Source of the DNA: an uncultured Clostridia bacterium
GTDB taxonomy: Bacteria > Bacillota > Clostridia > Christensenellales > UBA1242
Direction of reading: 5' to 3'
Assembly: GCA_934772445.1 (NCBI GenBank)
Contig: CAKVMJ010000003.1
Coordinates: forward strand, 1,672 to 65,671
Length of the DNA stretch: 64,000 nucleotides
Of this stretch, positions 35,649 to 60,750 are shown one piece after another. How positions within the stretch are numbered: position 1 is the first letter of the stretch; every line of letters begins with the position of its first letter. A program made the translations under genes and the position numbers. The notes under the pieces are model-generated. The model worked only from the letters and a program-made list of their open reading frames with translations, did not search any database and was not told where the DNA came from.

Positions 35649-35721
35649 GACTTACATCTAAAATTATTTAACATTTTAAGAAGTTTTGTAATTAAAATTA
35701 ATATTTAATATTTTCAATATT

Positions 35722-36141: not shown

Positions 36142-36283
36142 TTATGTTTCATACTTTTACACCTCTTTAGTAGTATTAAAGAATTATTTTATATTTATGT
36201 CAATCCTTTTATCTAAATATAAATAAATTTTATATATAAATAAAAGCAAAAAAACATTAAAGAATATTAATTCTTTCAAATAA

Positions 36284-36313
36284 ACAACAAAAAAACACCA
36301 TAAAAATGGTGTT
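36284..36313 (-). terminator. Terminator after rplA
   Basis: Minus strand reads AACACCA-TTTTT-TGGTGTT followed by TTTTTTGTTGTTT. Confidence 0.8.
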
Positions 36314-36318
36314 TTTAA

Positions 36319-37002: not shown

Positions 37003-37051
37003 AATTTTCTTTTCCTTTTGTGGTATTCTCGAATAAAATTAAATAGATTTT

Positions 37052-37489: not shown

Positions 37490-37690
37490 ATTTTTCCTCC
37501 TGCCTTTAAACCAAGGCATTTTGTGGTGTAAACAAAATGCATATAAGATTTACATTTCTCCCACGATTAGCAAAATGCTATATATTGAACTAGTTTTAAA
37601 CTAGGCTCAATCAAAAATCAAATTTGCCTGCAATTTTCATTGCAAACTATAGTATATTAGCAAATTTCTAAACAAATTACAATAGAATTT

Positions 37691-41010: not shown

Positions 41011-41050
41011 AAAAAACAAAAGCATAAGAAAACTTATGCTTTTATTTTTT
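41011..41050. terminator. Bidirectional terminator between convergent genes
   Basis: AAGCATAAG-AAAA-CTTATGCTT 9-bp stem flanked by an A run and a T run. Confidence 0.8.
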
Positions 41051-44000
41051 AGAATTTATAAAGAACTAATTCAAACATTGGAGTTGTTTCATCATCTGCA
41101 TTTACAAAACTATCGTATTTCCATTGATGATTATTATAGAAACTAATTAATGTTGTAGAATTTCCATTACTATAAACATAATCGAAAGTTGCTAAATTAA
41201 CATCATTTTTACCCTCAATATTTTTATTATCCTTACCACCAAACAATCTAACATCTTTAAATGAATTGTTTGTGCTATTACCAGCCATACTTTGACTAAT
41301 TACTTCTTTACTCTTAAATTCAAATAAGTTTGTTGAATTTGCGATTTGAGCCTTACCTATCAACGCACCAGAGTTAGTTGTTTCAACTGTAACACTACCA
41401 ATATTTTGAATGTTTTTAACTTCTGTTACGCCATAATAGAACCATTTAAACGAACCAGCTTCTTGCTTTCTTTCGCCATAGATTTCTAAGTAACCAAGTA
41501 AGCCACCAATATTATTTAGAGTAACTTCTTCTTCATTTATAATATCGCCAAAGTTTTTAGCCACATTCAACTTACCTCTAAGCGAACCAAATAATCCGCC
41601 AACATAAGATGCATCGCCTAATAATGAGATACTTGCATAATTTGCCACAACTTCGTTTATAGAAACTGCATCACCTGCAATACCTCCCACAAACTCTCTT
41701 GCAGTAATATTTCCATTATTAACCAAATATTTTAACCCATTATTTTCATAATTGAAATCTGCATTGAAATTATCATTATTAGTTTGAGATACCACGCCAT
41801 CAGTTTCAACAGATATTGTTTCAAAATAATCATTTGAACTTGCTGTGTGGTTTAATTTACCAATTATACCACCAACATTTGCGTAACCTTCAACATTTCC
41901 CATATTTCTTAGGTAGTAAACCGATTTATCAACTTGTTTACCAACAATGCTTGTTTTCATACCAAATCCGATAAATCCACCAACATAATTATTACCTTTA
42001 ATATTACCCTTATTTAGAGTTTGATAATAATTATTGATTATGATTTCACCACTAATATAATAAAGTCCTGTTGCATCATCAACTAAATAATTATTGTTTT
42101 CATCTTTTTCAAAATCGTTATATCCTGAATCTGTTTCTTTTGAATATGTGTTTCCACTTAAAGTTAAGTTTTCAACATAACCAAATAATCCGCCAACATA
42201 ATTTAAGCCAGTTACATTTCTTGAATTTAGAATATCAACTGCTTGAACATTATTTGCAATCATCACACCAGCCATACCACCAACAAAACTATAATTATTA
42301 GCAGTGATTAAACCAGAATTTGTGATGTTATTTAATTCAACAACTGATTGGCTACCGCTAGAGTAAAGTTTTTGAGTGAAATTACCAGTAATTTCATTTG
42401 CAATTATTTCAGTTCCAACGAAACCAAATATTCCACCAACATAGCTTGCTAACGAATTAGAAGTTTCAATATCTCCAGCATTAGCTATATTATTTGCAAT
42501 CAAACTATTTGAGCAATCTACAAAACCTATAATTCCACCAGCAAAACTACCTTTTGAGGTTACTTTTGCAATGTTATTTAAGTTTGTAAGTTCGATTGTT
42601 TCAGCTTTGATGCTTGCAACGATTGAACCTGAATAATCGCCATTTGCATTGATTGAACCAGTGTTTGTAATTTCTCCATTTACGCCTTGAATAGTTGAAG
42701 ATTTTGCATCAATGAAACCAATTAAACCAGCAACATAAGTTGAACCAGTAATTCTACCAGTATTTTGACAATTATTTACAACACAACTTACGCCATTATC
42801 ATAACTAGATACAATTTTTCCAGCCAAACCACCAACATAATCTTTACCAGTAACGCTATTATTATTGAAGCAAGCTACAAACTGAACCACCTCAGCAGAT
42901 GAATTTCTTATTGCAATTAATCCGCCAGCAGATTCACTTGCAGTGATTAACCCAGAGTTTTTACTATTACTAATTAAAACTTTTCCATCAACAATTGCAA
43001 CAAATCCACCAACATTTATTCCATTCAAATCGCTTTTATTAATGCAATCTTGAATATCCAAGCTTCCTGTAACATATCCAGCAAGTCCACCAATATTGCC
43101 TGCGGATTTATAGTTAAATTTACCATTGTTTTCACAATTTTTAAATATAACATTTTCAGCTTTACCAATTAATCCACCTATATTTGTAGTTGCAACTAAG
43201 CCTGTTAGAGTTGCATCATTTGTAATATTTTCAATTACGCAATCTCCTGTGGCTATAAATGCAATTATACCAGCAGAATCTTCATCTATAGATGTAACAG
43301 AAACTGAATTTGTACTTGAGAACCCTATGTATCCAATTTTTGAATTTTGAATTGCATAGAATAATCCACCATCTGAAACTGTTAAATTGCTTAGAGTTCG
43401 CTCAACTTTTGTATTTGAAGCTAAGTTATATCCAAATAAGTTACCTTTAAAGATATATGGTTTTTCACCAATTGAAGCCCAAACTTTAGAACTAAAATCT
43501 AAGTCATTTAAGATTCTTACATCAATACCAGCAAAATCATACTCGCCATTATTAACTATTCTTGCAATCCAAGCAAGTTCGCTTGGTTCTTGAATATCCA
43601 CATAACCATTTGTTTTGATTGTTTCAATGAAAGTTTTTTCTTCATCTGTGATAACATTCTCATTATGATACTTATCTTCACCCGGCATTTTAGTACCATA
43701 AATCCAATAATCGAAATAAACTGGGTAACCATTATTTAAACTATTAACCCTACACCAAATCTTACCAAATCTAAATCCGTCAATAGAGTTATCTGTTTTT
43801 AAAGTATCCGAACTTATATTTATAAGTTTGTTATCTCCGCCAACTGTGGCTAGAGAAGAAATTGTATAAATCTTTCCTGCAATTCGAGAGTGGTTTACAT
43901 TCTCACCAGAACTTAAAGCATCAATTTCAGTTGAGATATAGATTACACCATCAACCCAAATATTAAATGAAGTTTCAGCAAATCCAAATAATCCGCCCAC

Positions 44001-47000
44001 ATTCTGCTTACCTTCAATATTTCTAGCATTAATATTTGTTGTTATATCACCATTTGAAATATAGCAATCTGAGAATGATATACCTGAATTAGAACTTCCA
44101 ACAAATCCGCCAGCAGTATTACCATAAGCATAGCCTTCAAATGAACATTGACTTAATATTGGTTGGTCAAAGTTTTTACCAATAATTCCGCCAACAGTTT
44201 CGCCATAAAGCATTACTTTGCTTGTACCATTATATGTTCTTATTTGAACACGAGAATAATTTGATGCGCCATTATTTTGTCCAGCTAATGTACCGGCATA
44301 AGTTTCAGTGCCACCAGCAAGCAAGATACCGCTACTTAAAACTAAATTTGAAATTTTAGCATTTCTAGTATAACCAAATAAACCAATAACTTTTCCGCTA
44401 ACAAATCTACCAGAAACGGATAAATCTGTGGTTACATTAATTCCGCTTATTCTTCTATTGTTTCCAATGAATGTACCATTAAATGGTCTTGCACTTGTTC
44501 CGATTGGTGACCAAATATATCCAGTTAAATCTATATCAGCCATAATTTCAACTTTAGCACCATTTGCCACTGTTCCATTATTCCAATCGCTAGCAAATTT
44601 TGCTAATTGATTAGCATTTATAATTGAATAAGTGCCTGTGGATTTATCATACGCTTCTTGATAATTACTCCATAATTGATTAGTTGTAATTAACCAACGA
44701 AGCTCAACTCTTCCATCTTTATCTAAAGCCCAAGTTTTTTCAAAATCAAATTTTGCTTGGTTTTTACCTGCTTCATATTCATTTAAGAAAGATTTTATAT
44801 CTATATTAGCTATATCCAAAACGCTTACTTTTTCGTTCTTATCGTTTCTATAATCATAAGAAGAACCATAAGCCATATAACTATTATACATTGTTTTTTC
44901 TTGATTAAAGATAGCCTGACTTTCCGTTGTGATACGGCTCTTTATAAACACGCCATTAAAGCTTGTTAGATTATTTACATCGGCTTCACTAATTATACCA
45001 TTATTAACCAATGTTTCCATTCCGCCATCTTTTAATCCTATTACAACACTTAAACAATCTAAGCTTACATTCTTTGCACCACTTTGAGTGAATGTTGATG
45101 ATAAATAAATTGTTTTATTTTCTAGGCTTAAATCTTCTGGCAATACTGTACCGCCATATCTAATAGCCGAATATTTATCTTTGTCATCACCTGTTAGCAA
45201 TGTTATATCTGTTGTAATCTTAACATTTTGATTATTTCTATTACCTAGCTGAATTTCTGTTAGAGTATCTTTAATCGTTGGAAACCTCATATTTGTTGTT
45301 CCAACACTACCCTTAACCCATTCAGCATTTTCTGTTCCACCTAACTTTAAGCTATTCAAACTGCCTTCAGTAAATTCTTTATAACCTTTTGCAAGTCCAT
45401 AGCCATTATGATTTGGAATGAAATCGTAAACATAGCAAATATTATTGAATAAACCATCTTTACGAACTTCGTTTCTTTTATATTCACCAATAATACCGCC
45501 AACTTTCTCTTCTTTCTTTAATATACCAATCTTACTTAATGAATAACTGCTTGATATATTAATTCCATCACCGATAACATCACCCATAGTTTCGCTTACT
45601 AATCCAATTAATCCGCCAACAGTATTATAACTAATACCATTAGATTCTTTTGCTTTAATTGAACCAGCAGAATATGTTACTAAGAATATATCTGTGGCTA
45701 AATTATTAGATTTAATATAACCAACAAGTCCACCAATATTATTTCCATAACCATCTTCAGTTTTAATATTTAAATTGCTTACAGATTTTTGAATTATAAT
45801 ACCGATATTCTTATCAACTGCATCACCTGCAGCATCAAAGCTTTCAAACTTACCAACAAGTCCGCCAATATTTGAATTGTTTGCCTTATTTAAGACAACA
45901 TCTCCACAAGCAGAACCACTATTGAATATCCTAACCGACCTACCATAACCGATTAGGCCACCAATATTAGTTTCATCAACATTTGTTCCTTCAATATTAA
46001 CGCTTGCAACACCATTTATAAATATTGCACATTCAGTTTTACCAACAAGTCCACCAATTGTGGCATTGGATTTATCTCCATTCAATACAATATTACCAAC
46101 GGCATTTGCGATAATCGGAATTTCATCTTCATCTTCACATTGAACATAACCAGCAACTAATCCTACATTCACACTAGCATTTGAAATTATAAAGCTCTTA
46201 GCTATTCCATTTGCAAAACTAATCTGACAATTTTCAACCCTGCTCTTATTACCAGTTAGGCTACCAACTAGTCCACCAGCATTTAACGCACTTGTTGCTA
46301 TATCATCAATAATACTTAGATTTAAATTCGTAAACTTTGTGTTATTTGCTTGGTTTACCAAAACACCAAAGTTATCTCCGCCCGCACTTATTATCTTTCC
46401 GCTAGCTGTTTCTATATTGAAATCTTTAAATGTTGCACCATCAGCACATTCAAATATAGAAGCTCTCACATTTAGAATTGTACTATCGTTATATGATTTA
46501 ATAACACCTGTGAATGGATTATTGATTGAGTTTAATGGGTTCCAACTCTCTCTATAATTATCCATATCAATATCGTTTAATAAAACATAAGTTTTGCTTG
46601 GATAGTTTGCTGTATTATTTACTAAATCATAAATAGTTTGAACATAAATTACATCTTCATAAACCTTAGTTCTAACTCTTGGGAACACATAAGTTTCGTT
46701 TTCCGACCTAGTACCTGTGGTCTCACTCATACTAACACCAAACCAAGTATCTTGTCGCCAGTTATCATAAATATTTTGAGGTCTTGAATTTTTACCATTA
46801 TAAGAGAATTGTAATGTTACCTCTCTTTCATCACCAGTTTTGGTTGTATCTAATAAAATCTTTGTTAGGTCGTATTCGCCTAATTCTGATTCGCCATAGT
46901 TTCTTACAATATAATGATTATCTATTGCATTACCTTTAATATATTCTGCATCATAAATTCTAGCAGTTAAACCATCGGTTTTTGTTTCATTAATCATATA

Positions 47001-53000: not shown

Positions 53001-56000
53001 ATTTGGTTTACCAGTTTCAACATCATAAGATTGCAATGTTATATCAGCATAATGATTTAGTGTAACTTTTTCCACAGCTTGTGAATTAATTGCATAATCA
53101 AATGAAACTGCTTCCACTCTACCATTGTTATCACCATACTTTTCTGAGTTGTTTACTAATGCAAAGAATGAAAATTTTAGATTTTCAGTTTCGGAAATAT
53201 AATATTTATATTCATCTAAAACTGTGATTGTGAAACTATATTTAATATATTTAGTTTCATCATAATTTTCTTCTAATTGGATTACATTATGATTTTTATC
53301 AAATCTTTGTATTGATGTTAATAAAACTCTAAATTTATCAACAGTAAATCCTTCAAACACCTTATCATTTAAAGGCAATTCATAAACTTTAGCACCATCT
53401 AATCGGCTTGTACCTTTATCTGTGATAAATGAATCTATATCTTTATTTGTAAATTCATCATATATGCTTTCAACAGTTTCGAATGTAAATTCTTCTGGCA
53501 TTATAACATCACCAGTTAAATCTAAATATTCGTTTTTATTATTTTGAACCGCAATATAAAGTTTTGCATTTGGATTATCTGTGGTGATTGTGGTTTCAAA
53601 ACTGCTTGGACTGAATGGGTTTGTTTTTGAATCTATAATTGTGGAAACAGATTTTGTACCATTAATAATATTGATATTAAACTTATCCCCACTATCCACA
53701 CTAAGTTCATTACTATTCTTATAAATTAAAACTCTTGTATTATCATTAATTTTAATATAAGGAACTGCCATTAAACTATAAGTTGTGGCATTAAGTCCGC
53801 TTATTACAGCTTCTGTTGCGTTATCACAATCAATATAAATTAATTCGCCTTTATCTTGAACCTTATTTACCTTAAACACTTGATTATTAATAGTAAATCC
53901 ATCTGGAATACCTGTTAAGCCTTCGTGGTAAACTTCAGTTCCTCCATTTGCTAAAACATAAAATCTAACGCCAAAATCAAAATAATTATTATTTTCAAGA
54001 GGAACTGCACCATAAAGTTTTATCAATGTTTTATCAACGCCATCTTGAGCAGTTAAACTCTCTGAAATACTAAAGTATAATCCGCTTGAAGTATTCTTAA
54101 TTATATTTAATGTTGGGTTATTCTTTGAAAGCTTTGTAGTTCTTGAAGAATCACTATAAATATCAATATTAGAAATTGCATTTATAATATTTACTTTTAT
54201 TATTTTGCTAAATTCTGTGTTTAATTTACTTGTGATTGATAATTCTGCCACACCACTTCCGCTAACAACCAAATATGCTTTGCCATTTTCATTTACAATT
54301 TTTACCAAGTTTGAATTACTCTTGATTGTAAGTTCGCTTGAAGAAATAAATGAAGGAGTGGCAATTGCTTTAATTACATCATTAAGCAAATATCTATTTT
54401 TCAAAGCTATTAATGAATTAATATGAGATGTAAATACTTTTTCATTTTGAGTTATCTTATCTAAATTGCCATCGTGATTGAAATCGTAATAGCCAAATTT
54501 TAATGGAAGCTTTTCTGTATCTACACTAAAGTAGGATAATGTTATTTCATCTGCTTTAACTTGAGATTCAACGCGTTTTGCAATAAGTTTATTTGATGTT
54601 GCATCATAAGTTTCTTCTAAGATTTCTTCTGTTTCAATAACTTTAACAATTGTACCAGTTTCAACCTCACCTTCTGATGGATAAGTTTTATCAACGAAAT
54701 TACATTCAATGCTCAAATTCTTCGGAGGTAAATCAACCACAAATTGAACTTTACCATTCTTTTCTTTATCTTTAGAAAGCACAATTGGGAAACCATTATT
54801 AACTTCTTGATTTAAGTAATAATCTTTTTTATCTAAATTTGCTGGTTTGCCATTAGTTTTATCCCAACCAGTTTCATTATCTATAACATCAATAATTTCT
54901 AAATTCCAAGAAGAATTTCTAAAGTTAGAATAATAATTAATATTTGAAATAATCAAATTTGTTAGGAATAAATTATCTTGATAAAGTTTAACATCAACAA
55001 GTGTACGAGAAAATCTTTCAATACTATCATAATAATATAATTGATTGTTAATCTTTATAAACTTACCATTACTATCCGCATCACCATTCTCATCACAACG
55101 AAGAGTTTTAGATTCTTCAATATAATGTAAGCTTAAATCACTACCTATATAAGATACATAATTACCATTTATTTGTTTTTTATAAGTTTCTAAAACTATA
55201 TTGCCATTTTTAGCATAACTTTCATTAATTGTAATTAAATTAGCACCAATTTCATAATTGCTTCCATTTTTAATTACAACAAAACTTTCAAATCCAATAT
55301 AGAAACTATTTAAAATTAGAATATTTGGAACTCTAAACTTTTTATTAATTGTGGTTGTGCTAACAACTTTTGAATAATTGCCCGTGTTTCCATTATCATC
55401 AAGTTTTGCATAAGAAGGAAGAGTTTCATAAGTTGTGTAATATAAAGTTTCAACTTTAGATGAAATTGTTTTTTCATTAACAATTCTAATAGTTAGAACA
55501 ACTTTATATTGCAAATTAGATAATAATTCGCACCAACTATCAAAGCTTCTATTATTTTCAACTTTATCATCTATCACAAAGCCATAGCCATTTAACATAC
55601 TTGCAAATGCACCGCTATCAACAGTATCAATTGTTTGATTAAATATATTTGATACCACAGTTTTAGCTTGAGTTAGATTTGTTACAGTTGTTTTTGCAAA
55701 ATATTGTCTGTTAAATTTCACCAAATCTAAAGATTCTGAAACAATTTTCTCTGAATATTCGTTAATTCCAGCAAAATTTTGTACAACATTTGTTGTTCCA
55801 TATTCTTTCAATAATGAATATGAATTTATAATATTATACGCACCGAAGTTTTCATCACCATATTTATAAGATTTACTTAATGAATAAGTGATATTACCTC
55901 CACTACTTCGAATTGATGCATTGCTAATAATACCTGTGGCATCACCAATAAATCCGCCTGCTTTTAGGTTATCATTTTTAAAGTAACCATCAACAACCAT

Positions 56001-59000
56001 ATTCTTAAGCACAATTGCAATAGAATTATCTTCGCCTTGCAATCCGCCAACAGCACCTCCAACATACGCAAACACTGCTGAATCATCTAATCTAAATGCG
56101 TTAAATTTAACATTTATCTGACAATTTTGAAGCACTAAATTCTTTGCTCTACCAACAAGTCCGCCAGCCACATTTCCTTCTTCGGCTTTTATTACAATAT
56201 CGCCAAAGTATAATTTATTCCTATCGGCTAACGAATATTTTTCATTTGAAATAACTTTATCCACATAAGAATAAACTGAAGAATATTTTATAACACCAGA
56301 AAGTATTATCTGAGAACCACTTGAAGCACTGGTTACATTTAATCCAACAAGTCCACCAACTGAGTCCTCACCCATAACAGCTGTGTTGAAATAACTAAAT
56401 CTATCATCGTTATCAATAAATTGAACTTTAATGCTATCAATCTCTGCTCTGAATTCGGTTAAGGAATTAATTGCAAAGCCATTTTCTAAAGATAATTCGA
56501 TTAATGGAGAATTTGTATCACCTTCACCATTTAAGTTTACACCAACAGCACCACCAATATTTTTTATACCAATAATCGTTGGCTCTACAACTGCACCAGT
56601 TATCTTGCCTGCATTTACACCAGCCACGCCACCAATATTGTTATTTCCATAGATAAATGCTCTAACTTGGCCATTTACAATCTCGCCTAAGTTTAAGCCA
56701 GCCACACCGCCAAAAGCAAATTTAGATGTTGCGGAAATATTTTCAGCATTTTCTAGGCTTGGATTTAAGCAAGAATAAATATCAAATTCAGCTAGACTAC
56801 TATCTTTAACTTCAAAACTAATTCTACTTTCTTTTCCAATATAACCAATCATTCCACCAACAAGCATATTGATAGAATCTATTGATGGGAAACCGCTTGC
56901 GATTTTAACTTTAACAGATGAGTTTACCACTGCTCCGCCTTGAATTGCACCCGCAAGTCCACCAACTAAAATATTTTTAGAGTTTGCACCAATATTTAGA
57001 TTTATTCCATATTGATTATTTTGAATTGAATAAATCTTTTGACCAGATAAGTTTTCTAATGAATTACCATCATCAATGAAAACATTTTCAATTCTTGATT
57101 GAATTGCTAAACCAACTAACGAACCAATTACTGCATTTTCATTAGTTGTGTTTATATTCATTTTTATATTCTTAATTGCAATATCTGCAATTTTAGCACC
57201 TTGTATTACACCAAACAAACCAATAAATTCCAATTCTTCTGTGTTGTTTAATTCAATGCTAATGCTTGGAATTGTACCAAATCTAGTTGAACCTACAAAC
57301 GAGCCTGTGAAAGGGGCAGTTAGCGAACCAATTGGTTTAAAACTTGAATTAGATAATGTAATATTATTAACTAAAACATAGTTTTGAGAATATGCTGAAG
57401 CATTATTTGAAAGTTTTAACAAATCTTCTTCTGTTGAGATTTCGTAAGGAACTTCCAATCCATCTTGAACAACCACTTGAATATCTATCCATTTCCTATA
57501 ATCGTTATTTTCCATAGCACTATCAAGCGCACAAAGTCTTAAATTAAACGATGGAGTTACATAACTTTCATTAATAGGTAAGCTAACAATCCAAACTTTA
57601 ACAACTTGGTTCTCGCTATCCACTTCAACCTCAATACTTGCATCATATATTTGTGCAACAATTGTTTTATTTTCTGGGTTTAATGGATTTAATACATAAG
57701 AAAATTCAAACATACTTTTTTCGTTTTTAACAAAATATATTCTGCTATCTGTTTCGTTTTCAACATCAAGTTCTCTTTTATCAAAAGTTATTCTATTTAA
57801 TGCCACATCTGGAATTATCTCACTAACCAATTTTGCGTTTGCCACTGTAATTCTGGTATGATTTGAAAATCCAGATTGATATGTGTTGCCATAGAAATCT
57901 TCATATTGCTCAGTTACATAAGCATAAACATAGAAATACGAACTAAAATCAAGATATTTATTAGCTGAGCTATCATTTAATATTCTTGTATAAAGGGTTA
58001 GAGTTTTGAAATCCGAACTTAATCTATAGTTTACCACTATATTAATTAAGTTACCTTCTAAAACAACTTCGCCCGACATATTATTTTTATCAATTTTGGT
58101 TTGACCAACTGGAAGTAACGATTCGCCATTTAATTTATTTAATAAATTCCAAGTTACTTCATATCTGCTCTTAACATCAATTGGTGCGATATTAATTGCA
58201 ACTTTTGTTATACCCTTCTTTTCTCTCTCTTCAATATTTAATGTATCTAATGTGAAGATTGAAGGATTTGAAGCGGTGGTTTTTACAGAACCGATTAATG
58301 ATTTTACATGAACATAAAATCTAAATTTAAATTCTTTTTGTGTTGGTTCAATATCAATATTATCATCTTCCCAAGAATAACCTCGGATTGTTATTTCAAT
58401 TTGAGTTTTATAAGCTGAAATATTTTTTGCAATTATATTCTTACCCTGAACTAAAACGCTTTCTGGAGCAGAACTTATTATCCTATAAGTTGTGTAGCCC
58501 CTATTAATATCAAGCAAGTAGGAATTTCCATTTTCATTAAATTTGATTGCAACGGTTTGCTTATTTCCAACCAAGGCTGAATATTCATTAAAGTTATCAT
58601 CATACATTCCGATTTCTTTAATTTCTTTTAAATCTTTATCAGAATAACTTCCAAGTTCCGCCACCAAATTTTCTGATTTTAAATTCATCAAAACTAAAAC
58701 TTTAATTTTAAATACATATCCATTTGGAGTTTGAACTAAAATTTCGCTATTGCCAAGTTTTATTTTTGTAACCTTTATATCAAAACCTGTTAGAGTTTTA
58801 TTACTAATTTCAACTAACTCGTTATCACTATTTGTAAATTTAAAATTATCAATTTTCAAATCTGCATATCTAGCATCAACTTGTCCATCAATATTAATCC
58901 AAGATGGGTTTCTTAATGGATTATTTAATTGCATAAAATTAAATGTTACAGGAAGGTCAGATAAGAAATTCAAATAAATTGTGGCTTCACTATCACCAAT

Positions 59001-60569
59001 ATCAGACCACTTAACATCATCTGGAACAATCCTTACATTAATTTCTTTTGAAATCTCTTCCATTGTTACAGACTTAAATCTTATTCTACATTCTGTAATA
59101 CTAGTTGACTTGGTAACAGTTCTAAGATATAGTTGAGTTCCACTATTTACTTTCGCACCATTTAAAATCTTTTCATAAGTAGCACCCCTTCTTACAACTA
59201 ATTCAAGTTCACTATTATCATCTAAAATTTCGCAAGTAAATTTTTCTAAATCTAATTGGTTTTTATCTGGACCTAAAACGCTTATAAATATTGGTGTACC
59301 AACTAAACCATTTGTATATGTGTTATAAACATAAATTGTATCTGCATTTTTGATTTCTTTTCCATTTTCAGTTTCATAAATTCCTATATCCTCTGGAAAC
59401 GGGGAAACTTCAACTTGCATTGAAATTACTAAATCTTGAAAATATTCTTCATAACCCAAGAAATTTACATAGAATTTTATAGTTTCTGGAGCGATGATAT
59501 TTTTATGTACGATATTAAATACCCCTCCATTTTCTCCCGAAACTTTTGAAACATCAATAAGATTTGATGGAGAAGATATAACCGATGGGTTCTTTTCTCT
59601 CTCAGTTTTTATGGAGTACTTAGTTGAAGTTGATAAATGTTCGGAAATATATAAATAATCCAAAGCATTAACAGTTTCATTTCCATAGTTATACATAAAA
59701 GCAAGAGAAGCTTTCAAACTATCTGCATAGTTTGTGGATAATTTCAATTTATAATAACCATTTGCCTTATCATATTCCAAACTTGGTTTTTCTGCAAGAG
59801 TTAGATTTTGAATTTGTAATTTATTCATATCAAATGGTGATAAAACTTTAAATGTGGCAGAATTAGTAACTTTTTCTTCTCCAGCCTCATTTTTATATCT
59901 GGCCACTAATTGAAAACTATCAACATTTGAATTTTCGCTAATTGTAATTTTTGTTCCATTAATTGTAACGCCATTAACTTGAGTGTTATTAACAAATTCA
60001 AATTTAATACTATCTTTTTGGTTTGTGTTTGCAGGAACAAAAGTTAGATAATCATAAGCAGAAGATTCGTTTAACAATTCTTCCGTGATATTAGTTGTTC
60101 TGCCTTTCAAGATTGGAATAGTATCATTTTTGAAGCTTAATTCATTAATTGGGATTACAACAAACACTTTATATGTTAGTTTTAATCCACCCTCTTTAGA
60201 AATGAAATTGATAGTTGCGTATCCACCATTCTTTGCCACAAAAGAAGCCGATGTTTCTTCACCCGAATGAGAAATACTCTCTCCATCAGTTGTAAGAAAT
60301 TCTATAACATCGCTTGGCTGTTCGATAGATATATCCACTCTTCTATCAATTGAACTATCTCCACCCGTAACTTTAGCGGTTAGTGTAAAGGTTGATGAAG
60401 AAGAAGTGAGAACAAACTCATTTCTTTTCATTTCCTCATTATATTCAACAGATGAAGAACTTATTTCCATTTTTAAATTTTTATACGGATTACCGCAAGC
60501 CACTAATGTGCAACCCGTAACCATAAACATAACAAAAATAAATAATAAATTTTTCGCAAGTTTTTTCAT
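41049..60569 (-). CDS. Giant (~6,500 aa) surface lipoprotein: Ig-like stalk regions plus six GLUG-motif beta-helix-like modules
   Basis: A single open frame of 6,512 codons. The likely start is ATG 60569 (GAGGA 8 nt upstream), giving MKKLAKNLLFIFVMFMVTGC with a V-T-G-C lipobox. G-G-[LIF]-[VAI]-G turns recur in dense arrays (NIGGLIGYG, YVGGLAGKI, YVAGLIGFI, FVGGMAGVM...). No LPXTG and no C-terminal TM. Confidence 0.85.
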   Translation of the reverse strand: MKKLAKNLLFIFVMFMVTGCTLVACGNPYKNLKMEISSSSVEYNEEMKRNEFVLTSSSSTFTLTAKVTGGDSSIDRRVDISIEQPSDVIEFLTTDGESISHSGEETSASFVAKNGGYATINFISKEGGLKLTYKVFVVIPINELSFKNDTIPILKGRTTNITEELLNESSAYDYLTFVPANTNQKDSIKFEFVNNTQVNGVTINGTKITISENSNVDSFQLVARYKNEAGEEKVTNSATFKVLSPFDMNKLQIQNLTLAEKPSLEYDKANGYYKLKLSTNYADSLKASLAFMYNYGNETVNALDYLYISEHLSTSTKYSIKTEREKNPSVISSPSNLIDVSKVSGENGGVFNIVHKNIIAPETIKFYVNFLGYEEYFQDLVISMQVEVSPFPEDIGIYETENGKEIKNADTIYVYNTYTNGLVGTPIFISVLGPDKNQLDLEKFTCEILDDNSELELVVRRGATYEKILNGAKVNSGTQLYLRTVTKSTSITECRIRFKSVTMEEISKEINVRIVPDDVKWSDIGDSEATIYLNFLSDLPVTFNFMQLNNPLRNPSWINIDGQVDARYADLKIDNFKFTNSDNELVEISNKTLTGFDIKVTKIKLGNSEILVQTPNGYVFKIKVLVLMNLKSENLVAELGSYSDKDLKEIKEIGMYDDNFNEYSALVGNKQTVAIKFNENGNSYLLDINRGYTTYRIISSAPESVLVQGKNIIAKNISAYKTQIEITIRGYSWEDDNIDIEPTQKEFKFRFYVHVKSLIGSVKTTASNPSIFTLDTLNIEEREKKGITKVAINIAPIDVKSRYEVTWNLLNKLNGESLLPVGQTKIDKNNMSGEVVLEGNLINIVVNYRLSSDFKTLTLYTRILNDSSANKYLDFSSYFYVYAYVTEQYEDFYGNTYQSGFSNHTRITVANAKLVSEIIPDVALNRITFDKRELDVENETDSRIYFVKNEKSMFEFSYVLNPLNPENKTIVAQIYDASIEVEVDSENQVVKVWIVSLPINESYVTPSFNLRLCALDSAMENNDYRKWIDIQVVVQDGLEVPYEISTEEDLLKLSNNASAYSQNYVLVNNITLSNSSFKPIGSLTAPFTGSFVGSTRFGTIPSISIELNNTEELEFIGLFGVIQGAKIADIAIKNIKMNINTTNENAVIGSLVGLAIQSRIENVFIDDGNSLENLSGQKIYSIQNNQYGINLNIGANSKNILVGGLAGAIQGGAVVNSSVKVKIASGFPSIDSINMLVGGMIGYIGKESRISFEVKDSSLAEFDIYSCLNPSLENAENISATSKFAFGGVAGLNLGEIVNGQVRAFIYGNNNIGGVAGVNAGKITGAVVEPTIIGIKNIGGAVGVNLNGEGDTNSPLIELSLENGFAINSLTEFRAEIDSIKVQFIDNDDRFSYFNTAVMGEDSVGGLVGLNVTSASSGSQIILSGVIKYSSVYSYVDKVISNEKYSLADRNKLYFGDIVIKAEEGNVAGGLVGRAKNLVLQNCQINVKFNAFRLDDSAVFAYVGGAVGGLQGEDNSIAIVLKNMVVDGYFKNDNLKAGGFIGDATGIISNASIRSSGGNITYSLSKSYKYGDENFGAYNIINSYSLLKEYGTTNVVQNFAGINEYSEKIVSESLDLVKFNRQYFAKTTVTNLTQAKTVVSNIFNQTIDTVDSGAFASMLNGYGFVIDDKVENNRSFDSWCELLSNLQYKVVLTIRIVNEKTISSKVETLYYTTYETLPSYAKLDDNGNTGNYSKVVSTTTINKKFRVPNILILNSFYIGFESFVVIKNGSNYEIGANLITINESYAKNGNIVLETYKKQINGNYVSYIGSDLSLHYIEESKTLRCDENGDADSNGKFIKINNQLYYYDSIERFSRTLVDVKLYQDNLFLTNLIISNINYYSNFRNSSWNLEIIDVIDNETGWDKTNGKPANLDKKDYYLNQEVNNGFPIVLSKDKEKNGKVQFVVDLPPKNLSIECNFVDKTYPSEGEVETGTIVKVIETEEILEETYDATSNKLIAKRVESQVKADEITLSYFSVDTEKLPLKFGYYDFNHDGNLDKITQNEKVFTSHINSLIALKNRYLLNDVIKAIATPSFISSSELTIKSNSNLVKIVNENGKAYLVVSGSGVAELSITSKLNTEFSKIIKVNIINAISNIDIYSDSSRTTKLSKNNPTLNIIKNTSSGLYFSISESLTAQDGVDKTLIKLYGAVPLENNNYFDFGVRFYVLANGGTEVYHEGLTGIPDGFTINNQVFKVNKVQDKGELIYIDCDNATEAVISGLNATTYSLMAVPYIKINDNTRVLIYKNSNELSVDSGDKFNINIINGTKSVSTIIDSKTNPFSPSSFETTITTDNPNAKLYIAVQNNKNEYLDLTGDVIMPEEFTFETVESIYDEFTNKDIDSFITDKGTSRLDGAKVYELPLNDKVFEGFTVDKFRVLLTSIQRFDKNHNVIQLEENYDETKYIKYSFTITVLDEYKYYISETENLKFSFFALVNNSEKYGDNNGRVEAVSFDYAINSQAVEKVTLNHYADITLQSYDVETGKPNVITSINQSFISNTLVCGQPGLLHINIHPGYSKVDTLTLSSNVVSGYSVSLEQMYANYITNQSGEINNNYLFGGYYTSLADDEGNVEVSNSLNLKQISYGYPNEDLVEYQYNGNYYVKTSIPTFSDASIKFELHLVGYADGKKVIDEKLIISPQLTPDLVFNSNGETETAIAIGTEVELTVRTNGTIDESKLFNLTVDKNIESIILANKTYSLQDEAVERYILNRQVMPDKDGETYRFYVPYNRDIIGEEFSLEVTVYKIINNNRYESKKKVSFIISEYVINNVVAERVEKNDSGEYELNGNYNQEYALKAVIDAKYVSYKDLTIKFGTALGNSADEIAKNADTILANIRKDITKLEALITSRGLFGEYISLEDLMKNDGANGSNLISTWQNQAGNFGEVEMDRTTIDVLSNRIDEYANQTGVLNKGTLSDAYYLYRSAYWKYVDGDSYETLSVEGNYNGVQITNARASRLNTGISVSIGENSMMELLEPYATLNVRVTNINTQTKLALSVSIGYGKDINGKTSVGLADSAEDIVNREQNKYSKSFDCEFGFNAIQLSNEENPEPIYTVEELKNMQAGVHYILMEDLELENWVPLNTAIASLDGNSYVLRLKSFANFVENSQTNIGLFGVVSEATILKNIILEAVPYNRNFDDTLEIKNAEGDINVVVQDLSQIRFGLIAGENQGTITNAYVTYDADKFREERDGLLGKADGIKASYYSTYKSNNPLLDNSNRTTSIIKISGNTISSSEDIRIGGVVGVNSGYITNSAIENVSIIGNVYVAGFVCENASGGKVASSYFKGGNIYNISEKGAGSYTSNGTAGFAIFNSGEINYSYVYGRGIVQGEFTQTPNISGVTGSTELENGDTFDKRYVGLKYTYNEITNGTSYELNKFLNSQTDTKLTYTNILNQRAVGSVINSAGNASGFIYSNSGVVSNSYSNILILASGSSGFVFANGASASINNSFTLSSVQTNDTYHKPFTGVIFEGSTSQSLNEGKIENSYYMQVNKNDYQQLFDIFSALYSHKDDEGFEENYGKLYVGLQEIFLTTGQGGKNLQFVVNQEKLWSDPFGSGDSTAIGLSSVEFAAYTSFATYSFNSDYAENGTKDPEKLARAVWFIPDANNNKASENKAIANYFKHNSYTSRVPELVSANLKTMSLRKANFIPQLPSNSDIKAVLETLASDMGYIRVKSRILEATTNDGVGYPDNGISNKEIFIGLIGNNTSNSIEEDENRSCGYATKLGEAIIDAYITVKNPLIKTDLIISGNNTVQNIMNNYFINGITYTGSIQGTNYKELSDKDILEILLVAVNSINAIDENSESSYTYSYVQENSKGVNIIYGESVLNPYLITSASKFNIYSLQINNMGEETTVDQDAYLRFVKDIYFDNVLESVKTYKLTFRGDLEGNGMTIQDLKIVAENEKVKEEAIEEIGLFKVLKGEEDGLRGSNVRNLNLDINTISATAVKYVGALAGRIEGGDIENIQILGDENSLINGFNATGGLAGKISGDETIVTNIKSSVSIKSNMYTGPANRYSAKVDDPTHRFNLYHYSTNDEGNYISNIDEVSYAGGIAGILEAKTIDLGSDVVSNANIRSNQVLSDISLRGEVVGGLFGYVGRNSLISNSKLVVSENTRIIASAVGGGLVGHLEGDITSSEVTHENQTAMDSEIYNKVKNFDSNDAKSTISIEWGVAVGDDDGLFEGENPNLFGASNANAHYIGGLAGLSYSGNIEFSYNRVDVASINSKFAGGIVGLSIGLSLKDVYTTASVFSFISYGGLIGIQTMEDAFNNYDLLNASRNNDYYIKNWSDIHRNNMNTTISLGSVVGANLWKDSHKVVNRKTYRIDAYQAEIGSFIGRAMSYNTNSAYLYGDVEWYNTSKNPTNQRVKSESVYFMMAYAKSNSKKLILEIGNATSVKAILNGTDDLNIIGEYQNEANRENEYLVRNLTKYIMFEGSNSIPSTYAYSGDFTSKLKNKDAIGDTDDAFNYYRFSRLANYGSFRTIKEFITGKYMINETKTDGLTARIYDAEYIKGNAIDNHYIVRNYGESELGEYDLTKILLDTTKTGDEREVTLQFSYNGKNSRPQNIYDNWRQDTWFGVSMSETTGTRSENETYVFPRVRTKVYEDVIYVQTIYDLVNNTANYPSKTYVLLNDIDMDNYRESWNPLNSINNPFTGVIKSYNDSTILNVRASIFECADGATFKDFNIETASGKIISAGGDNFGVLVNQANNTKFTNLNLSIIDDIATSALNAGGLVGSLTGNKSRVENCQISFANGIAKSFIISNASVNVGLVAGYVQCEDEDEIPIIANAVGNIVLNGDKSNATIGGLVGKTECAIFINGVASVNIEGTNVDETNIGGLIGYGRSVRIFNSGSACGDVVLNKANNSNIGGLVGKFESFDAAGDAVDKNIGIIIQKSVSNLNIKTEDGYGNNIGGLVGYIKSNNLATDIFLVTYSAGSIKAKESNGISYNTVGGLIGLVSETMGDVIGDGINISSSYSLSKIGILKKEEKVGGIIGEYKRNEVRKDGLFNNICYVYDFIPNHNGYGLAKGYKEFTEGSLNSLKLGGTENAEWVKGSVGTTNMRFPTIKDTLTEIQLGNRNNQNVKITTDITLLTGDDKDKYSAIRYGGTVLPEDLSLENKTIYLSSTFTQSGAKNVSLDCLSVVIGLKDGGMETLVNNGIISEADVNNLTSFNGVFIKSRITTESQAIFNQEKTMYNSYMAYGSSYDYRNDKNEKVSVLDIANIDIKSFLNEYEAGKNQAKFDFEKTWALDKDGRVELRWLITTNQLWSNYQEAYDKSTGTYSIINANQLAKFASDWNNGTVANGAKVEIMADIDLTGYIWSPIGTSARPFNGTFIGNNRRISGINVTTDLSVSGRFVSGKVIGLFGYTRNAKISNLVLSSGILLAGGTETYAGTLAGQNNGASNYSRVQIRTYNGTSKVMLYGETVGGIIGKNFDQPILSQCSFEGYAYGNTAGGFVGSSNSGISFSDCYISNGDITTNINARNIEGKQNVGGLFGFAETSFNIWVDGVIYISTEIDALSSGENVNHSRIAGKIYTISSLATVGGDNKLINISSDTLKTDNSIDGFRFGKIWCRVNSLNNGYPVYFDYWIYGTKMPGEDKYHNENVITDEEKTFIETIKTNGYVDIQEPSELAWIARIVNNGEYDFAGIDVRILNDLDFSSKVWASIGEKPYIFKGNLFGYNLASNTKVERTLSNLTVSDGGLFYAIQNSKIGYIGFSSTNSVSVTSIDEDSAGIIAFIATGDCVIENITNDATLTGLVATTNIGGLIGKAENVIFKNCENNGKFNYKSAGNIGGLAGYVTGSLDIQDCINKSDLNGINVGGFVAIVDGKVLISNSKNSGLITASESAGGLIAIRNSSAEVVQFVACFNNNSVTGKDYVGGLAGKIVSSYDNGVSCVVNNCQNTGRITGSTYVAGLIGFIDAKSSTIQGVNGEITNTGSINANGDYSGSIVASIKAETIELTNLNNIAKVTSKGSFAGGIIGFVDCSNSLIANNIANAGDIETSNSLASYVGGIFGFVGTEIIANEITGNFTQKLYSSGSQSVVELNNITNSGLITANNYSFVGGMAGVMIANNVQAVDILNSRNVTGLNYVGGLFGYVENLTLSGNTYSKETDSGYNDFEKDENNNYLVDDATGLYYISGEIIINNYYQTLNKGNIKGNNYVGGFIGFGMKTSIVGKQVDKSVYYLRNMGNVEGYANVGGIIGKLNHTASSNDYFETISVETDGVVSQTNNDNFNADFNYENNGLKYLVNNGNITAREFVGGIAGDAVSINEVVANYASISLLGDASYVGGLFGSLRGKLNVAKNFGDIINEEEVTLNNIGGLLGYLEIYGERKQEAGSFKWFYYGVTEVKNIQNIGSVTVETTNSGALIGKAQIANSTNLFEFKSKEVISQSMAGNSTNNSFKDVRLFGGKDNKNIEGKNDVNLATFDYVYSNGNSTTLISFYNNHQWKYDSFVNADDETTPMFELVLYKF

Positions 60570-60750
60570 TTCCATTTTCCTCTGCATTTATGTTTTGTAA
60601 ATTCAAAACAATTATTTAATTTATATATAAATATTATATATACATAACGCAAAATATCAAAATAAAATTAAATAAAACATAAAAAAATAGAAAAGAATTT
60701 TACTTTAAATCTTTCCTATTTTTAATTTTTAGAAATGTTTACATTTCTAA

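What the first reader, a model, noticed from the sequence alone, without database searches (positions are those of the whole stretch)
41049..60587. Uninterrupted 19.5-kb ORF: a ~6,500-residue modular lipoprotein occupying 30% of the window
One minus-strand frame stays open for 6,512 codons in sequence that is about 70% A+T. Every overlapping alternative ORF is about 100 codons or shorter, so this is coding, not chance. After the RBS-supported start at 60569, the N-terminus MKKLAKNLLFIFVMFMVTGC is a lipoprotein signal with a V-T-G-C lipobox. Residues ~30-1045 and ~1900-3080 read like beta-sandwich (Ig/BIG2-like) stalk. Six modules are interspersed. Each opens with the same entry motif (I-x-[ST]-x-E-[DE]-L..L......Y-x-L-x-N-D-I-D-L....W-x-P-I-G....P-F-x-G-x-F-x-G). 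Their first codons lie near 57452, 51315, 48990 (the weakest match), 46655, 44630 and 43605. Each module continues as degenerate 20-25-residue turns carrying G-G-[LIF]-[VAI]-G, the Pfam GLUG-type motif known from IgA1-protease-family and other large Firmicute surface proteins. The last ~1,000 residues are an almost continuous array of such turns. I see no LPXTG, C-terminal TM, SLH or choline-binding repeats, or catalytic motif. Function is unknown. Its size, lipid anchor and reiterated module grammar make it the outlier of the window.
Basis: partly seen in the sequence, partly recalled or inferred. Interest (0 to 1): 0.75.

Follow-up and report, generated by a model that had tools for sequence, protein, structure and literature searches.

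The report
Giant lipid-anchored GLUG-repeat surface protein
This is a real, intact and selectively maintained 6,506-residue gene of an uncultured spore-forming human-gut Clostridia bacterium; it encodes a membrane-tethered surface protein with six capped GLUG beta-solenoid modules separated by long stretches with no known relatives, probably an adhesin-like fibre, and its function is untested.

Summary
Window 41049..60587(-) is one open frame of 6,512 codons (chance about 1e-266). The true start is the ATG at 60569, giving 6,506 aa.

The gene is real. More than ten independent gut-metagenome assemblies carry it without a frameshift. Strain variants give pN/pS of 0.12-0.21. Full-length collinear orthologues (6,527 aa at about 70-75% identity, 6,285 aa at 37%) lie in the same chromosomal neighbourhood in two other uncultured Clostridia MAGs.

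All six "entry motifs" are real. They are the N-terminal cap of GLUG-type solenoids. GLUG (PF07581) reaches Pfam's cut-off. A cap profile hits the solved solenoid 3N6Z (E=1e-4) and GLUG-annotated proteins. About 47 turns follow the six caps.

About half of the protein (residues 26-1045 and about 1600-3087) is orphan. An exhaustive search of 1.84 billion representatives found only the two orthologues. A beta-sandwich fold is weakly supported, for one short stretch only, and there is no Big_2 match.

No catalytic, LPXTG, SLH or barrel element was found. The membrane-distal C-terminal array evolves fastest.

Best reading: an N-terminally lipid-anchored adhesin-like fibre. It is a new member of a known kind, of moderate interest.

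The parts
60633..60660 (-). Sigma-70-like promoter candidate: TTGATA, 16 nt, TATAAT
   Evidence: 11/12 consensus match. The -10 box and the TTGA of the -35 box are conserved in the 77% orthologue L014. It is a consensus match only and expression is untested.
60591..60610 (-). Perfect 7-bp palindrome TGTTTTG-AATTTA-CAAAACA in the conserved 5' leader (operator site or RNA hairpin candidate)
   Evidence: Read. The ~100 nt upstream of the start are nearly identical between the window and L014, while the proteins are only about 70-75% identical.
60579..60582 (-). Ribosome-binding site GAGG, 9 nt upstream of the ATG at 60569
   Evidence: Sequence read; conserved in L014.
41049..60569 (-). Coding sequence of the giant protein: 6,506 aa plus a TAA stop. 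The stop-free frame extends 18 nt further, to 60587.
   Evidence: Independent 6,506/6,508-aa gene calls. pN/pS 0.12-0.21.
60495..60569 (-). Lipoprotein signal peptide MKKLAKNLLFIFVMFMVTGCTLVAC. The conserved lipobox is L-V-A-C25, so the mature protein would start at the lipidated Cys25 followed by GNPY.
   Evidence: It is the only hydrophobic segment in the protein. The lipobox pattern matches in all three orthologues and only C25 is invariant. Lgt is encoded at 3799-4590.
57453..60494 (-). N-terminal non-repeat region ('stalk 1', residues 32-1045 in 6,512 numbering). It is all-beta in the partial model and has no known family.
   Evidence: No Pfam, NCBIfam or PDB sequence hit. AF2 pLDDT is 70-88 for residues about 810-1045, strands only. 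Weak Foldseek hits to tandem beta-sandwich ectodomains. 69-86% identical to P0001.
55788..57452 (-). Module 1 (residues 1046-1600): cap plus about 9 GLUG-like turns
   Evidence: Cap alignment, turn HMM, Pfam GLUG 21.7 bits. The AF2 model is moderately confident for the cap and first turns. Foldseek hits to a phage 'putative IgA1 protease' and to pectate-lyase-superfamily beta-helices.
51327..55787 (-). Orphan middle region (residues 1601-3087): a variable linker (1601-1900) followed by 'stalk 2'
   Evidence: Exhaustive HMMER of residues 1900-3090 against 1.84e9 representatives found only P0001 and P0002. No Pfam or PDB hit. AF2 model unusable. No internal repeats by hhalign.
48993..51326 (-). 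Module 2 (residues 3088-3865): the strongly conserved cap QLSNEENPEPIY..., degenerate turns, then a conserved non-repeat C-terminal part
   Evidence: It is among the best-conserved stretches against P0002 (43-53% identity in several 100-residue bins). Strain pN/pS 0.03.
46668..48992 (-). Module 3 (residues 3866-4640): a weak cap, about 8 turns, then a non-repeat part
   Evidence: Pfam GLUG 26.4 bits over 4 stretches. Up to 93% identity to P0001.
44637..46667 (-). Module 4 (residues 4641-5317): cap, about 8 turns, then a non-repeat part
   Evidence: Pfam GLUG 20.6 bits.
43611..44636 (-). Module 5 (residues 5318-5659): the most canonical cap plus about 4 turns
   Evidence: An in-frame 6-nt indel at codon 5335 in strain L006.
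41388..43610 (-). Module 6 (residues 5660-6400): cap plus about 15 turns. This is the membrane-distal array and the fastest-evolving part.
   Evidence: pN/pS is 0.28 here against 0.03-0.11 elsewhere. Only 41-60% identical to P0001.
41052..41387 (-). C-terminal non-repeat tail (residues 6401-6512), ending ...ELVLYKF
   Evidence: No Pfam hit. No non-synonymous strain variants. Too short for an autotransporter barrel, and no sorting signal.
41018..41043 (.). Bidirectional terminator-like hairpin between the giant gene and the convergent CoaE-like gene

Best explanation
The gene encodes a very large cell-surface lipoprotein of an uncultured, spore-forming, low-GC Clostridia bacterium of the human gut.

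Proposed mechanism, with each step marked as shown or inferred:
1. The protein is made from its own conserved promoter and leader (candidate only) and exported by Sec (inferred from the signal peptide).
2. Cys25 of the conserved L-V-A-C lipobox is diacylglycerol-modified by Lgt, which is encoded in the window. The signal peptide is then removed, leaving the N-terminus tethered to the outer face of the cytoplasmic membrane (inferred; the motif and its conservation are shown).
3. About 1,000 residues of beta-rich, family-less sequence follow and would carry the rest of the protein through and beyond the cell wall (inferred).
4. Six beta-solenoid modules follow. Each opens with the cap I-x-T-x-E-[ED]-L...[DN]-[IL]-[DT]-[LM]...W-x-P-[IL]-[GN]...F-x-G-x-[FL]-x-G...I-G-L-F-G and continues with 25-30-residue GLUG-type turns (shown at the sequence level; the fold is moderately supported). 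The modules are separated by non-repeat regions.
5. The C-terminal, membrane-distal array (module 6) is the least constrained part, both within and between species. That is the pattern expected for an exposed ligand-binding or antigenic tip.

I therefore read it as an adhesin-like surface fibre that binds host or dietary glycans, mucus or other cells (inferred; no ligand is known for any GLUG protein). It is not a protease, despite the 'IgA1 protease / peptidase M26' names that GLUG proteins often carry.
For: Real, selected gene:
- Chance is excluded and the coding periodicity is strong.
- More than ten independent assemblies carry it with no frameshift.
- pN/pS is 0.12-0.21.
- End-to-end collinear orthologues of 6,527 and 6,285 aa exist. 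Intact ORFs sit in the same neighbourhood (SipL-spoIIR-[sleB-ypeB]-giant) in two GTDB MAGs.

Lipoprotein:
- There is a single N-terminal hydrophobic segment.
- The lipobox pattern and the invariant Cys25 are present in all three orthologues.
- Lgt and a type I signal peptidase are encoded in the window.

GLUG solenoids:
- PF07581 scores at or above the gathering score in three tiles of the window protein and two tiles of the 37% orthologue.
- About 47 turns, consensus NITGNNNVGGLIGYIEGSIISNSQISN, fall in six blocks, each behind a cap.
- The caps align with external GLUG-annotated proteins.
- The cap profile retrieves PF07581-annotated proteins and one named 'peptidase M26'.
- The cap profile hits PDB 3n6z_A at E=1e-4. 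3N6Z is described as a solenoid distantly related to GLUG (PMC4021314).
- The AF2 model of module 1 is moderately confident for the cap and first turns. Its Foldseek hits include a phage 'putative IgA1 protease' and pectate-lyase-superfamily helices (E 2e-7 to 5e-4) and a GH28 beta-helix.

Distal tip evolving fastest:
- pN/pS is 0.28 in module 6 against 0.03-0.11 in modules 2-5.
- Identity to P0001 is 41-60% at the C-terminus against 74-86% over most of the N-terminal 1,000 residues.

Adhesion role: GLUG proteins in gut archaea have been proposed as adhesin-like (PMC9723798). Giant bacterial proteins are often implicated in adhesion (bioRxiv 10.1101/2023.11.21.568195).
Against: - There is no direct evidence of expression, lipidation, surface exposure or binding.
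- The GLUG motif has no demonstrated function, so 'adhesin' is an argument from architecture and analogy.
- Pfam GLUG scores are only marginally above the cut-off.
- About half of the protein has no detectable relatives and no reliable model (pLDDT 33 for residues 2490-3340). An enzymatic or other domain could be hidden there.
- The beta-solenoid fold is also the fold of many polysaccharide-degrading enzymes.
- The cell-envelope type of this lineage (monoderm or diderm) was not established.
- Conserved synteny with sporulation and germination genes could mean a spore-related role instead.
Confidence: 0.5

Rival explanations
1. It is a spore-associated structural protein, either a forespore-membrane lipoprotein or an outer spore-surface fibre. 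It would be made during sporulation and act in spore attachment, germinant access or spore-surface architecture.
For: In all three species the gene lies immediately downstream of, and on the same strand as, sporulation and germination genes: SipL-like, spoIIR, sleB and ypeB in the window and L014, and SipL-spoIIR in L015. A collagen-repeat protein (Pfam Collagen) is also encoded in the window. On general knowledge, not tested here, collagen-like repeat proteins such as BclA form exosporium filaments in some spore formers.
Against: The gene has its own sigma-70-like promoter candidate and sits behind a terminator-like hairpin after ypeB. No sporulation-sigma consensus was identified. The distant orthologue has lost sleB-ypeB but kept the giant gene, so the two are not functionally inseparable. 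On general knowledge, exosporium proteins are assembled in the mother cell without Sec or lipoprotein signals. Synteny next to the nusG-rplKAJL cluster may simply reflect a stable chromosomal region.
Confidence: 0.12
2. It is a surface-tethered multi-enzyme. One or more solenoid modules, or the orphan regions, would be carbohydrate-active (a pectate-lyase/GH28-like beta-helix) or otherwise catalytic, degrading host or dietary polymers at the cell surface.
For: Foldseek matches of the module-1 model include a GH28 exopolygalacturonase (2uve, E 4.7e-3, 763 columns). They also include 'pectate lyase superfamily', GH5 and cellulase-annotated phage proteins. About 3,000 residues are unannotated and could hide catalytic domains.
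Against: No Pfam, NCBIfam or PDB sequence match to any enzyme family. The fold matches have very low TM-scores (0.13-0.22) and low probabilities for the enzyme hits. No conserved HExxH. The closest relatives of the cap are GLUG proteins with no known activity.
Confidence: 0.15
3. It is an IgA1-protease-type (peptidase M26) virulence or colonisation factor.
For: Relatives of the cap are named 'peptidase M26' or 'putative immunoglobulin A1 protease' in databases.
Against: No HExxH or HxxEH motif occurs in the window protein or in P0001. The single HExxH in P0002 is not conserved. There is no Peptidase_M26 Pfam match, no G5 domain and no LPXTG. The database names derive from the shared non-catalytic repeat region.
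Confidence: 0.02
4. It is an artefact: a chimeric assembly, a decaying pseudogene, or a non-coding region that happens to be open.
For: Giant ORFs in metagenome assemblies are sometimes chimeras. All the evidence here comes from short-read assemblies.
Against: The probability of the open frame by chance is about 1e-266. Identical or 99%-identical copies occur in more than ten assemblies from several studies. Purifying selection is evident. There are no long DNA repeats to seed chimeras. Intact collinear orthologues exist at 37% identity.
Confidence: 0.01

Closest known systems
GLUG-motif (Pfam PF07581) solenoid proteins, including the solved structure PDB 3N6Z ('putative immunoglobulin A1 protease'; Uniprot A7LZL0, attributed to B. 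thetaiotaomicron in PMC4021314)
   Same: They share the same N-terminal cap motif (...ADIDL...W.PIG...F.G.FDG.GH.I..L...IGLFG) and the same 25-30-residue turns carrying G-G-[LIV]-[VA]-G. The cap profile hits 3n6z_A at E=1e-4 and PF07581-annotated proteins. PF07581 reaches its gathering score.
   Different: The proteins retrieved as relatives here are 100-620 residues long and 3N6Z is 363, each apparently with a single solenoid. This protein strings six separately capped solenoids, only 32% identical to each other or less, along 6,506 residues. It interleaves them with about 3,000 residues that have no relatives outside its own orthologues, and it is lipid-anchored.
IgA1-specific metalloproteases of streptococci (MEROPS/Pfam peptidase M26; ZmpA/B/C family)
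   Same: They share the GLUG-type repeat region. Database names of the nearest relatives come from this family (PMC4021314).
   Different: There is no M26 catalytic domain, no HExxH, no LPXTG and no G5. It works like the non-catalytic part at most and is not a member of the protease family.
Adhesin-like proteins with GLUG motifs in gut-associated archaea (Methanimicrococcus blatticola; PMC9723798)
   Same: Both are membrane-bound GLUG-containing proteins of gut microbes, proposed to mediate attachment.
   Different: Those are far smaller, some carry Flg_new domains, and their function is equally untested.
Giant surface adhesins of Gram-positive bacteria and other giant bacterial proteins (for example those surveyed in bioRxiv 10.1101/2023.11.21.568195; Ebh-type proteins, from general knowledge)
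   Same: It is multi-thousand-residue, modular, secreted and repeat-rich, with a presumed role in adhesion.
   Different: Anchoring is by an N-terminal lipobox rather than LPXTG, a C-terminal TM segment or multiple TM segments. The repeats are old and divergent, with no DNA-level repeats, rather than near-identical tandem copies. There is no SecA-like or other recognisable domain.

Membership tests
GLUG-motif solenoid proteins (Pfam PF07581) | Match to the PF07581 profile at or above its gathering score (20.5 bits) | tested here: met
   Window tiles score 21.7, 26.4 and 20.6 bits, with 19.5 just below the cut-off. Orthologue P0002 tiles score 25.5 and 28.7 bits. The margin is small, and the match was missed when 3,300-3,400-residue halves were scanned at E<=0.01.
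GLUG-motif solenoid proteins (Pfam PF07581) | Reiterated 25-30-residue turns carrying G-G-[LIV]-[VA]-G | tested here: met
   37 exact motifs. About 47 turns by a self-trained HMM, confined to six blocks.
GLUG-motif solenoid proteins (Pfam PF07581) | The N-terminal cap motif shared with other family members and with the solved solenoid 3N6Z | tested here: met
   Alignment with P0003, P0005 and P0007. The profile retrieves PF07581-annotated proteins and 3n6z_A at E=1e-4.
GLUG-motif solenoid proteins (Pfam PF07581) | Beta-solenoid three-dimensional fold | tested here: inconclusive
   The AF2 model of residues 760-1640 has mean pLDDT 55, with 70-88 only for the cap and first turns. Foldseek hits to beta-helix proteins have good E-values but low TM-scores.
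Bacterial lipoproteins (Lgt/LspA pathway) | Signal peptide with a positively charged n-region, a hydrophobic h-region and a lipobox ending in an invariant Cys | tested here: met
The pattern matches in the window protein, P0001 and P0002.
Bacterial lipoproteins (Lgt/LspA pathway) | The organism encodes the modification machinery | tested here: met
   Lgt (PF01790, E=7e-45) lies at 3799-4590(-). LspA was not seen in the 64-kb window and the rest of the genome was not available.
Bacterial lipoproteins (Lgt/LspA pathway) | Actual diacylglycerol modification and signal peptidase II cleavage | not testable with these tools
   This needs a biochemical assay.
Peptidase M26 (IgA1-specific metalloendopeptidase) | Zinc-binding HExxH motif within an M26 catalytic domain | tested here: not met
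   There is no HExxH or HxxEH in the window protein or P0001, and none is conserved. There is no M26 Pfam match.
Bacterial Ig-like domain arrays (Big_2 and related Pfam families) | Profile match to an Ig-like family | tested here: not met
   No Big or Ig family appears at E<=10 in any tile of the window protein. P0002 shows only sub-threshold Filamin and Calx-beta noise.
Bacterial Ig-like domain arrays (Big_2 and related Pfam families) | Tandem beta-sandwich fold | tested here: inconclusive
   Residues about 810-1045 are modelled as all-beta with pLDDT 70-88. The best PDB matches are cadherin and pilus ectodomains at E=4.5e-4 and weaker, with TM about 0.1. The rest of both stalks is not modelled. 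No internal repeats were found by hhalign.
Wall-anchored Gram-positive surface proteins (LPXTG / SLH / choline-binding / CWB) | C-terminal sorting signal or a wall-binding repeat domain | tested here: not met
   There is no LPxTG in the window protein or P0001 and no C-terminal hydrophobic segment. There are no SLH, CW_binding or similar Pfam matches.
Autotransporters / trimeric autotransporter adhesins | C-terminal beta-barrel translocator domain | tested here: not met
   No Pfam match in the last tile. Only 112 non-repeat residues follow the last turn. The N-terminus is a lipoprotein signal.

The most novel reading that the evidence does not exclude
The family could be a new class of megadalton-scale, N-terminally lipid-anchored surface organelle. 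It would be restricted to one uncultured lineage of spore-forming gut Clostridia. Its roughly 3,000 orphan residues would contain new folds or activities, for example a spore or germination-linked surface structure, or a tethered polymer-degrading machine. The GLUG solenoids would be scaffolding rather than the functional part.
Probability: 0.15. Interest if true: 0.65.

Novelty: new member of a known kind. Interest (0 to 1): 0.4.

Why it matters
The gene takes about 19.5 kb of a presumably small genome, is kept intact under purifying selection in at least three species of an uncultured human-gut Clostridia lineage, and recurs in gut metagenomes from several studies (Hadza samples among them). 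The organism therefore invests heavily in it, and it is likely to be the dominant structure on its surface. It offers three things:
- A tractable set of six divergent GLUG solenoids for finally testing what the GLUG motif does.
- An unusually long candidate for a lipid-anchored bacterial protein.
- About 3,000 residues of sequence with no relatives among 1.84 billion representatives, a good target for structure discovery.

Large Gram-positive surface proteins with solenoid repeats are a known theme, and nothing here points to a new mechanism, so the interest is moderate.

Tried and rejected
- Whole-protein and 5,000-aa queries to the word-index protein search failed: one was too long and one timed out.
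- The 1,900-aa N-terminal query gave no hit at E<=1e-5 and did not even find the orthologues. Giant proteins seem not to be reachable through that index.
- Pfam and NCBIfam on 3,300-3,400-aa halves gave nothing. Only 720-aa tiles exposed GLUG.
- phmmer and profile searches of PDB sequences with both halves and with alignments A2 and A3 gave only noise. Only the short cap profile A5 found 3N6Z.
- The AF2 model of residues 2490-3340 with a 3-sequence alignment was useless (pLDDT 33), so I ran no fold search on it.
- Whole-protein self-BLAST returned no off-diagonal hits. Tiled BLAST showed the modules are 32% identical or less.
- hhalign self-comparison of stalk tiles found no repeated domain at probability 80% or higher. 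The 3-sequence profiles are weak, so this is not strong evidence of absence.
- A megablast of the ribosomal-protein cluster against plasmids was uninformative for taxonomy.
- A literature search for 'GLUG' as a single word returned mostly noise.
- Rejected readings: IgA1 protease (no catalytic domain), autotransporter (no barrel), LPXTG or SLH anchoring, prophage tail fibre (housekeeping context that is syntenic across species), polymorphic toxin (no C-terminal toxin domain; the tail shows no non-synonymous variation among strains), and recent repeat expansion or assembly collapse (no DNA repeats).


Full report
**1. Observation**

The window contains one ORF at 41049..60587 on the minus strand, 6,512 codons long. 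It has a single terminal TAA and no in-frame TGA or TAG. The coding strand is 69.7% A+T. With its base composition a random codon is a stop with probability 0.090, so a 6,512-codon open frame has a chance of about 10^-266. The other five frames stay open for at most 105, 42, 75, 109 and 81 codons. GC content is 39.6 / 34.8 / 16.7% at codon positions 1/2/3.

The functional start is the ATG at 60569. GAGG lies 9 nt upstream of it. The upstream ATG at 60587 is ATA in the orthologous locus L014. Independent gene calls give 6,506 residues.

**2. Is it a real, continuous gene?**

Exact look-ups of the two flanking proteins found the same locus in many independent human-gut metagenome assemblies from several studies, Hadza samples among them.
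- The first 9.3-9.8 kb of the gene is identical in five assemblies.
- The last 5.7-9.9 kb is 99.2-100% identical in eight assemblies. There is no frameshift or stop, and one in-frame 6-nt indel at codon 5335.
- Complete products of 6,506 or 6,508 aa were called in at least four assemblies.
- Strain variants give pN/pS of 0.12-0.21.
- The gene contains no tandem repeats. Its only direct DNA repeats are 25-54-nt imperfect matches, many of them over the codons of the G-G-L-x-G motif. Repeat-mediated chimerism is therefore not a concern.

**3. Orthologues and distribution**

I ran an exhaustive HMMER search with the non-GLUG middle region (residues 1900-3090) against 1.84 billion cluster representatives. 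It returned only two proteins: P0001 (6,527 aa, 75% identical over the query) and P0002 (6,285 aa, 37%). Over the full-length alignment the identities are 69% and 37%.

All three proteins are collinear from the signal peptide to the last residues. Both orthologues are encoded as intact ORFs in GTDB species genomes labelled 'uncultured Clostridia bacterium' (L014 and L015).

Synteny is conserved. The window and L014 have SipL-like, spoIIR, sleB, ypeB, then the giant gene. L015 has SipL-spoIIR, an ~830-bp spacer, then the giant gene. Downstream lie a convergent CoaE-like gene, two small membrane ORFs and the rpmG-nusG-rplKAJL cluster.

The gene is thus an old, vertically inherited chromosomal gene of a narrow lineage of spore-forming, ~30% GC gut Clostridia. 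It is not a mobile or phage element.

**4. Anatomy**

(a) Signal. The only hydrophobic segment is N-terminal. MKKLAKNLLFIFVMFMVTGCTLVAC contains two possible lipoboxes.

(b) Caps. The same motif heads unrelated GLUG-annotated proteins found with module 5. A profile of the caps retrieves further PF07581-annotated proteins, one of them named 'peptidase M26'. It also hits the solved structure 3n6z_A, 'putative immunoglobulin A1 protease', at E=1e-4 across the whole motif. 3N6Z has been described as a previously unrecognised solenoid whose repeats are distantly related to GLUG (PMC4021314).

(c) Turns. A self-trained HMM finds about 47 turns with the consensus NITGNNNVGGLIGYIEGSIISNSQISN. They occur only in six blocks behind the caps and never in residues 1-1045 or 1600-3090. 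Pfam GLUG reaches its gathering score in three 720-aa tiles of the window protein (21.7, 26.4 and 20.6 bits against 20.5) and in two tiles of P0002 (25.5 and 28.7 bits). The modules are only 32% identical to each other or less, so the array is ancient.

(d) Fold. The AF2 model of residues 760-1640 (3-sequence alignment) has mean pLDDT 55. It reaches 70-88 for residues about 810-1260, the last part of stalk 1 plus the cap and first turns of module 1. Against the PDB the model gives weak hits to tandem beta-sandwich ectodomains (desmocollin and cadherins at E=4.5e-4 and weaker; CupB6, FimC, PapD) and to a GH28 right-handed beta-helix. Against predicted viral structures it gives better hits (E=2e-7 to 5e-4). 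These include a phage 'putative immunoglobulin A1 protease' and, at weaker E-values, pectate-lyase-superfamily proteins. TM-scores are low throughout, so this is supporting evidence, not proof.

(e) Orphan parts. Residues 26-1045 and about 1600-3087, plus the non-repeat stretches behind each solenoid, match nothing in Pfam, NCBIfam or PDB sequences. They show no internal repeats by profile-profile comparison. The model of residues 2490-3340 was unusable (pLDDT 33).

(f) Absent features. There is no conserved HExxH, LPxTG, second TM segment, SLH or choline-binding repeat, and no barrel domain.

**5. Evolutionary pattern**

Identity to P0001 is 74-86% over most of the N-terminal 1,000 residues, 74-93% in modules 2-3, and only 41-60% in module 6. 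Among strains, pN/pS is 0.03-0.11 in modules 2-5 but 0.28 in module 6. Non-synonymous density there is 3-12 times higher. The 112-residue tail shows no non-synonymous change. If the N-terminus is the anchor, the fastest-evolving part is the distal tip.

**6. Regulation**

A terminator-like hairpin follows ypeB. A TTGATA-16-TATAAT promoter candidate lies at 60660-60633. The ~100 nt upstream of the start codon are almost identical between the window and L014, although the proteins are only about 70-75% identical. This stretch contains a perfect palindrome, TGTTTTG-AATTTA-CAAAACA, at 60610-60591. It suggests a conserved regulatory leader, but its meaning is unknown. A bidirectional terminator-like hairpin (41018-41043) closes the gene.

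**7. Interpretation**

Shown:
- It is a real, conserved gene.
- It has a lipoprotein-type signal with a conserved Cys.
- It has six capped GLUG-type repeat modules.
- No known catalytic or wall-anchoring domain is present.
- The distal end is the most variable part.

Inferred:
- Sec export and Lgt/Lsp processing, leaving an N-terminally tethered fibre.
- The orphan beta-rich N-terminal region acts as a spacer through the wall.
- The solenoids act as display or binding surfaces.
- The overall function is adhesion or surface interaction in the gut. This follows the proposals for GLUG proteins of gut archaea (PMC9723798) and for giant bacterial proteins in general (bioRxiv 10.1101/2023.11.21.568195).

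I put about 0.85 on the structural description and about 0.5 on the adhesin-like function. Rivals, with my estimates:
- A spore-associated role, from the synteny: 0.12.
- A tethered carbohydrate-active or other enzyme hidden in solenoids or orphan regions: 0.15.
- An IgA1 protease: 0.02, since the catalytic domain is absent.
- An artefact: 0.01.

**8. Comparison with the known, and novelty**

It is a member of the GLUG-motif solenoid world: the profile, the turns and the cap are all met, and the fold is moderately supported. It is not a member of peptidase M26, Big_2/Ig arrays, LPXTG or SLH proteins, or autotransporters, because their defining features were tested and not met.

Within the GLUG world it stands out in four ways: its size, six separately capped solenoids, the lipobox anchor, and about 3,000 residues of orphan sequence.

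Giant modular surface proteins are an established theme, and nothing indicates a new mechanism. I therefore file it as a new member of a known kind, with moderate interest (0.4). The main open value is that it is a conserved, heavily invested-in surface structure of an uncultured gut bacterium, and a good handle on the unknown function of GLUG.

Noticed in passing
window 60570-60700 (-), especially 60591-60610: The 5' leader and promoter region of the giant gene is nearly identical between the window and the orthologous locus L014, although the proteins are only about 70-75% identical. It contains a perfect 7-bp palindrome, TGTTTTG-AATTTA-CAAAACA, between the -10 box and the RBS, which could be an operator or an RNA hairpin.
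   Followed up: partly
window 10542-14357 (-): A 1,271-aa protein with DUF4011, AAA_11/AAA_12 helicase and MTES_1575 nuclease domains. It matches the PADLOC candidate defence models PDC-S37 (E=1.8e-162) and Hhe (E=2.8e-91).
   Followed up: partly
window 5103-5822 (+): A 239-aa protein with collagen triple-helix repeats (Pfam Collagen, E=1.4e-10). On general knowledge, not tested here, such repeats occur in BclA-type exosporium filament proteins of some spore formers.
   Followed up: no
window 23574-25094 (-): A 506-aa protein with an N-terminal hydrophobic segment and BspA-type leucine-rich repeats (LRR_5, E=1e-30). It is another putative surface or adhesion protein.
   Followed up: no
window 29613-32273 (-), 20756-22132 (-), 22150-23376 (-): Three sizeable ORFs (886, 458 and 408 aa) with no Pfam match. 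The 886-aa one has an N-terminal signal-like segment. None is similar to the giant protein by tblastn.
   Followed up: partly
L006 3474-5647 compared with window 35443-36318: One strain (Hadza/Nepal assembly ERZ4567745) carries a two-gene insertion, a LysR regulator and a CYTH/HAD protein, between rplJ and rplA. The insertion is absent from the window and from L007.
   Followed up: no
L001-L005 compared with window 50750-60569: Five assemblies with three different ENA record-naming schemes (apparently three studies) show zero differences from the window over 9.3-9.8 kb. Other strains differ by about 0.7%. The look-up by exact YpeB sequence biases towards identical strains, but such clonality across samples is notable.
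   Followed up: partly
L015 2290-2450: The ~830-bp spacer that replaces sleB-ypeB upstream of the distant orthologue contains a direct repeat of about 75 bp (ATTTAAGTAAAACGAATTAATTTACTCACTTAAAGAAAAA...), seen by eye.
   Followed up: no
window 32495-37519 (-): The rplK-rplA-rplJ-rplL cluster, with its L10 leader at 35465-35609, is followed by aspS rather than by rpoB-rpoC. On general knowledge, rpoBC usually follows rplL in Firmicutes.
   Followed up: no
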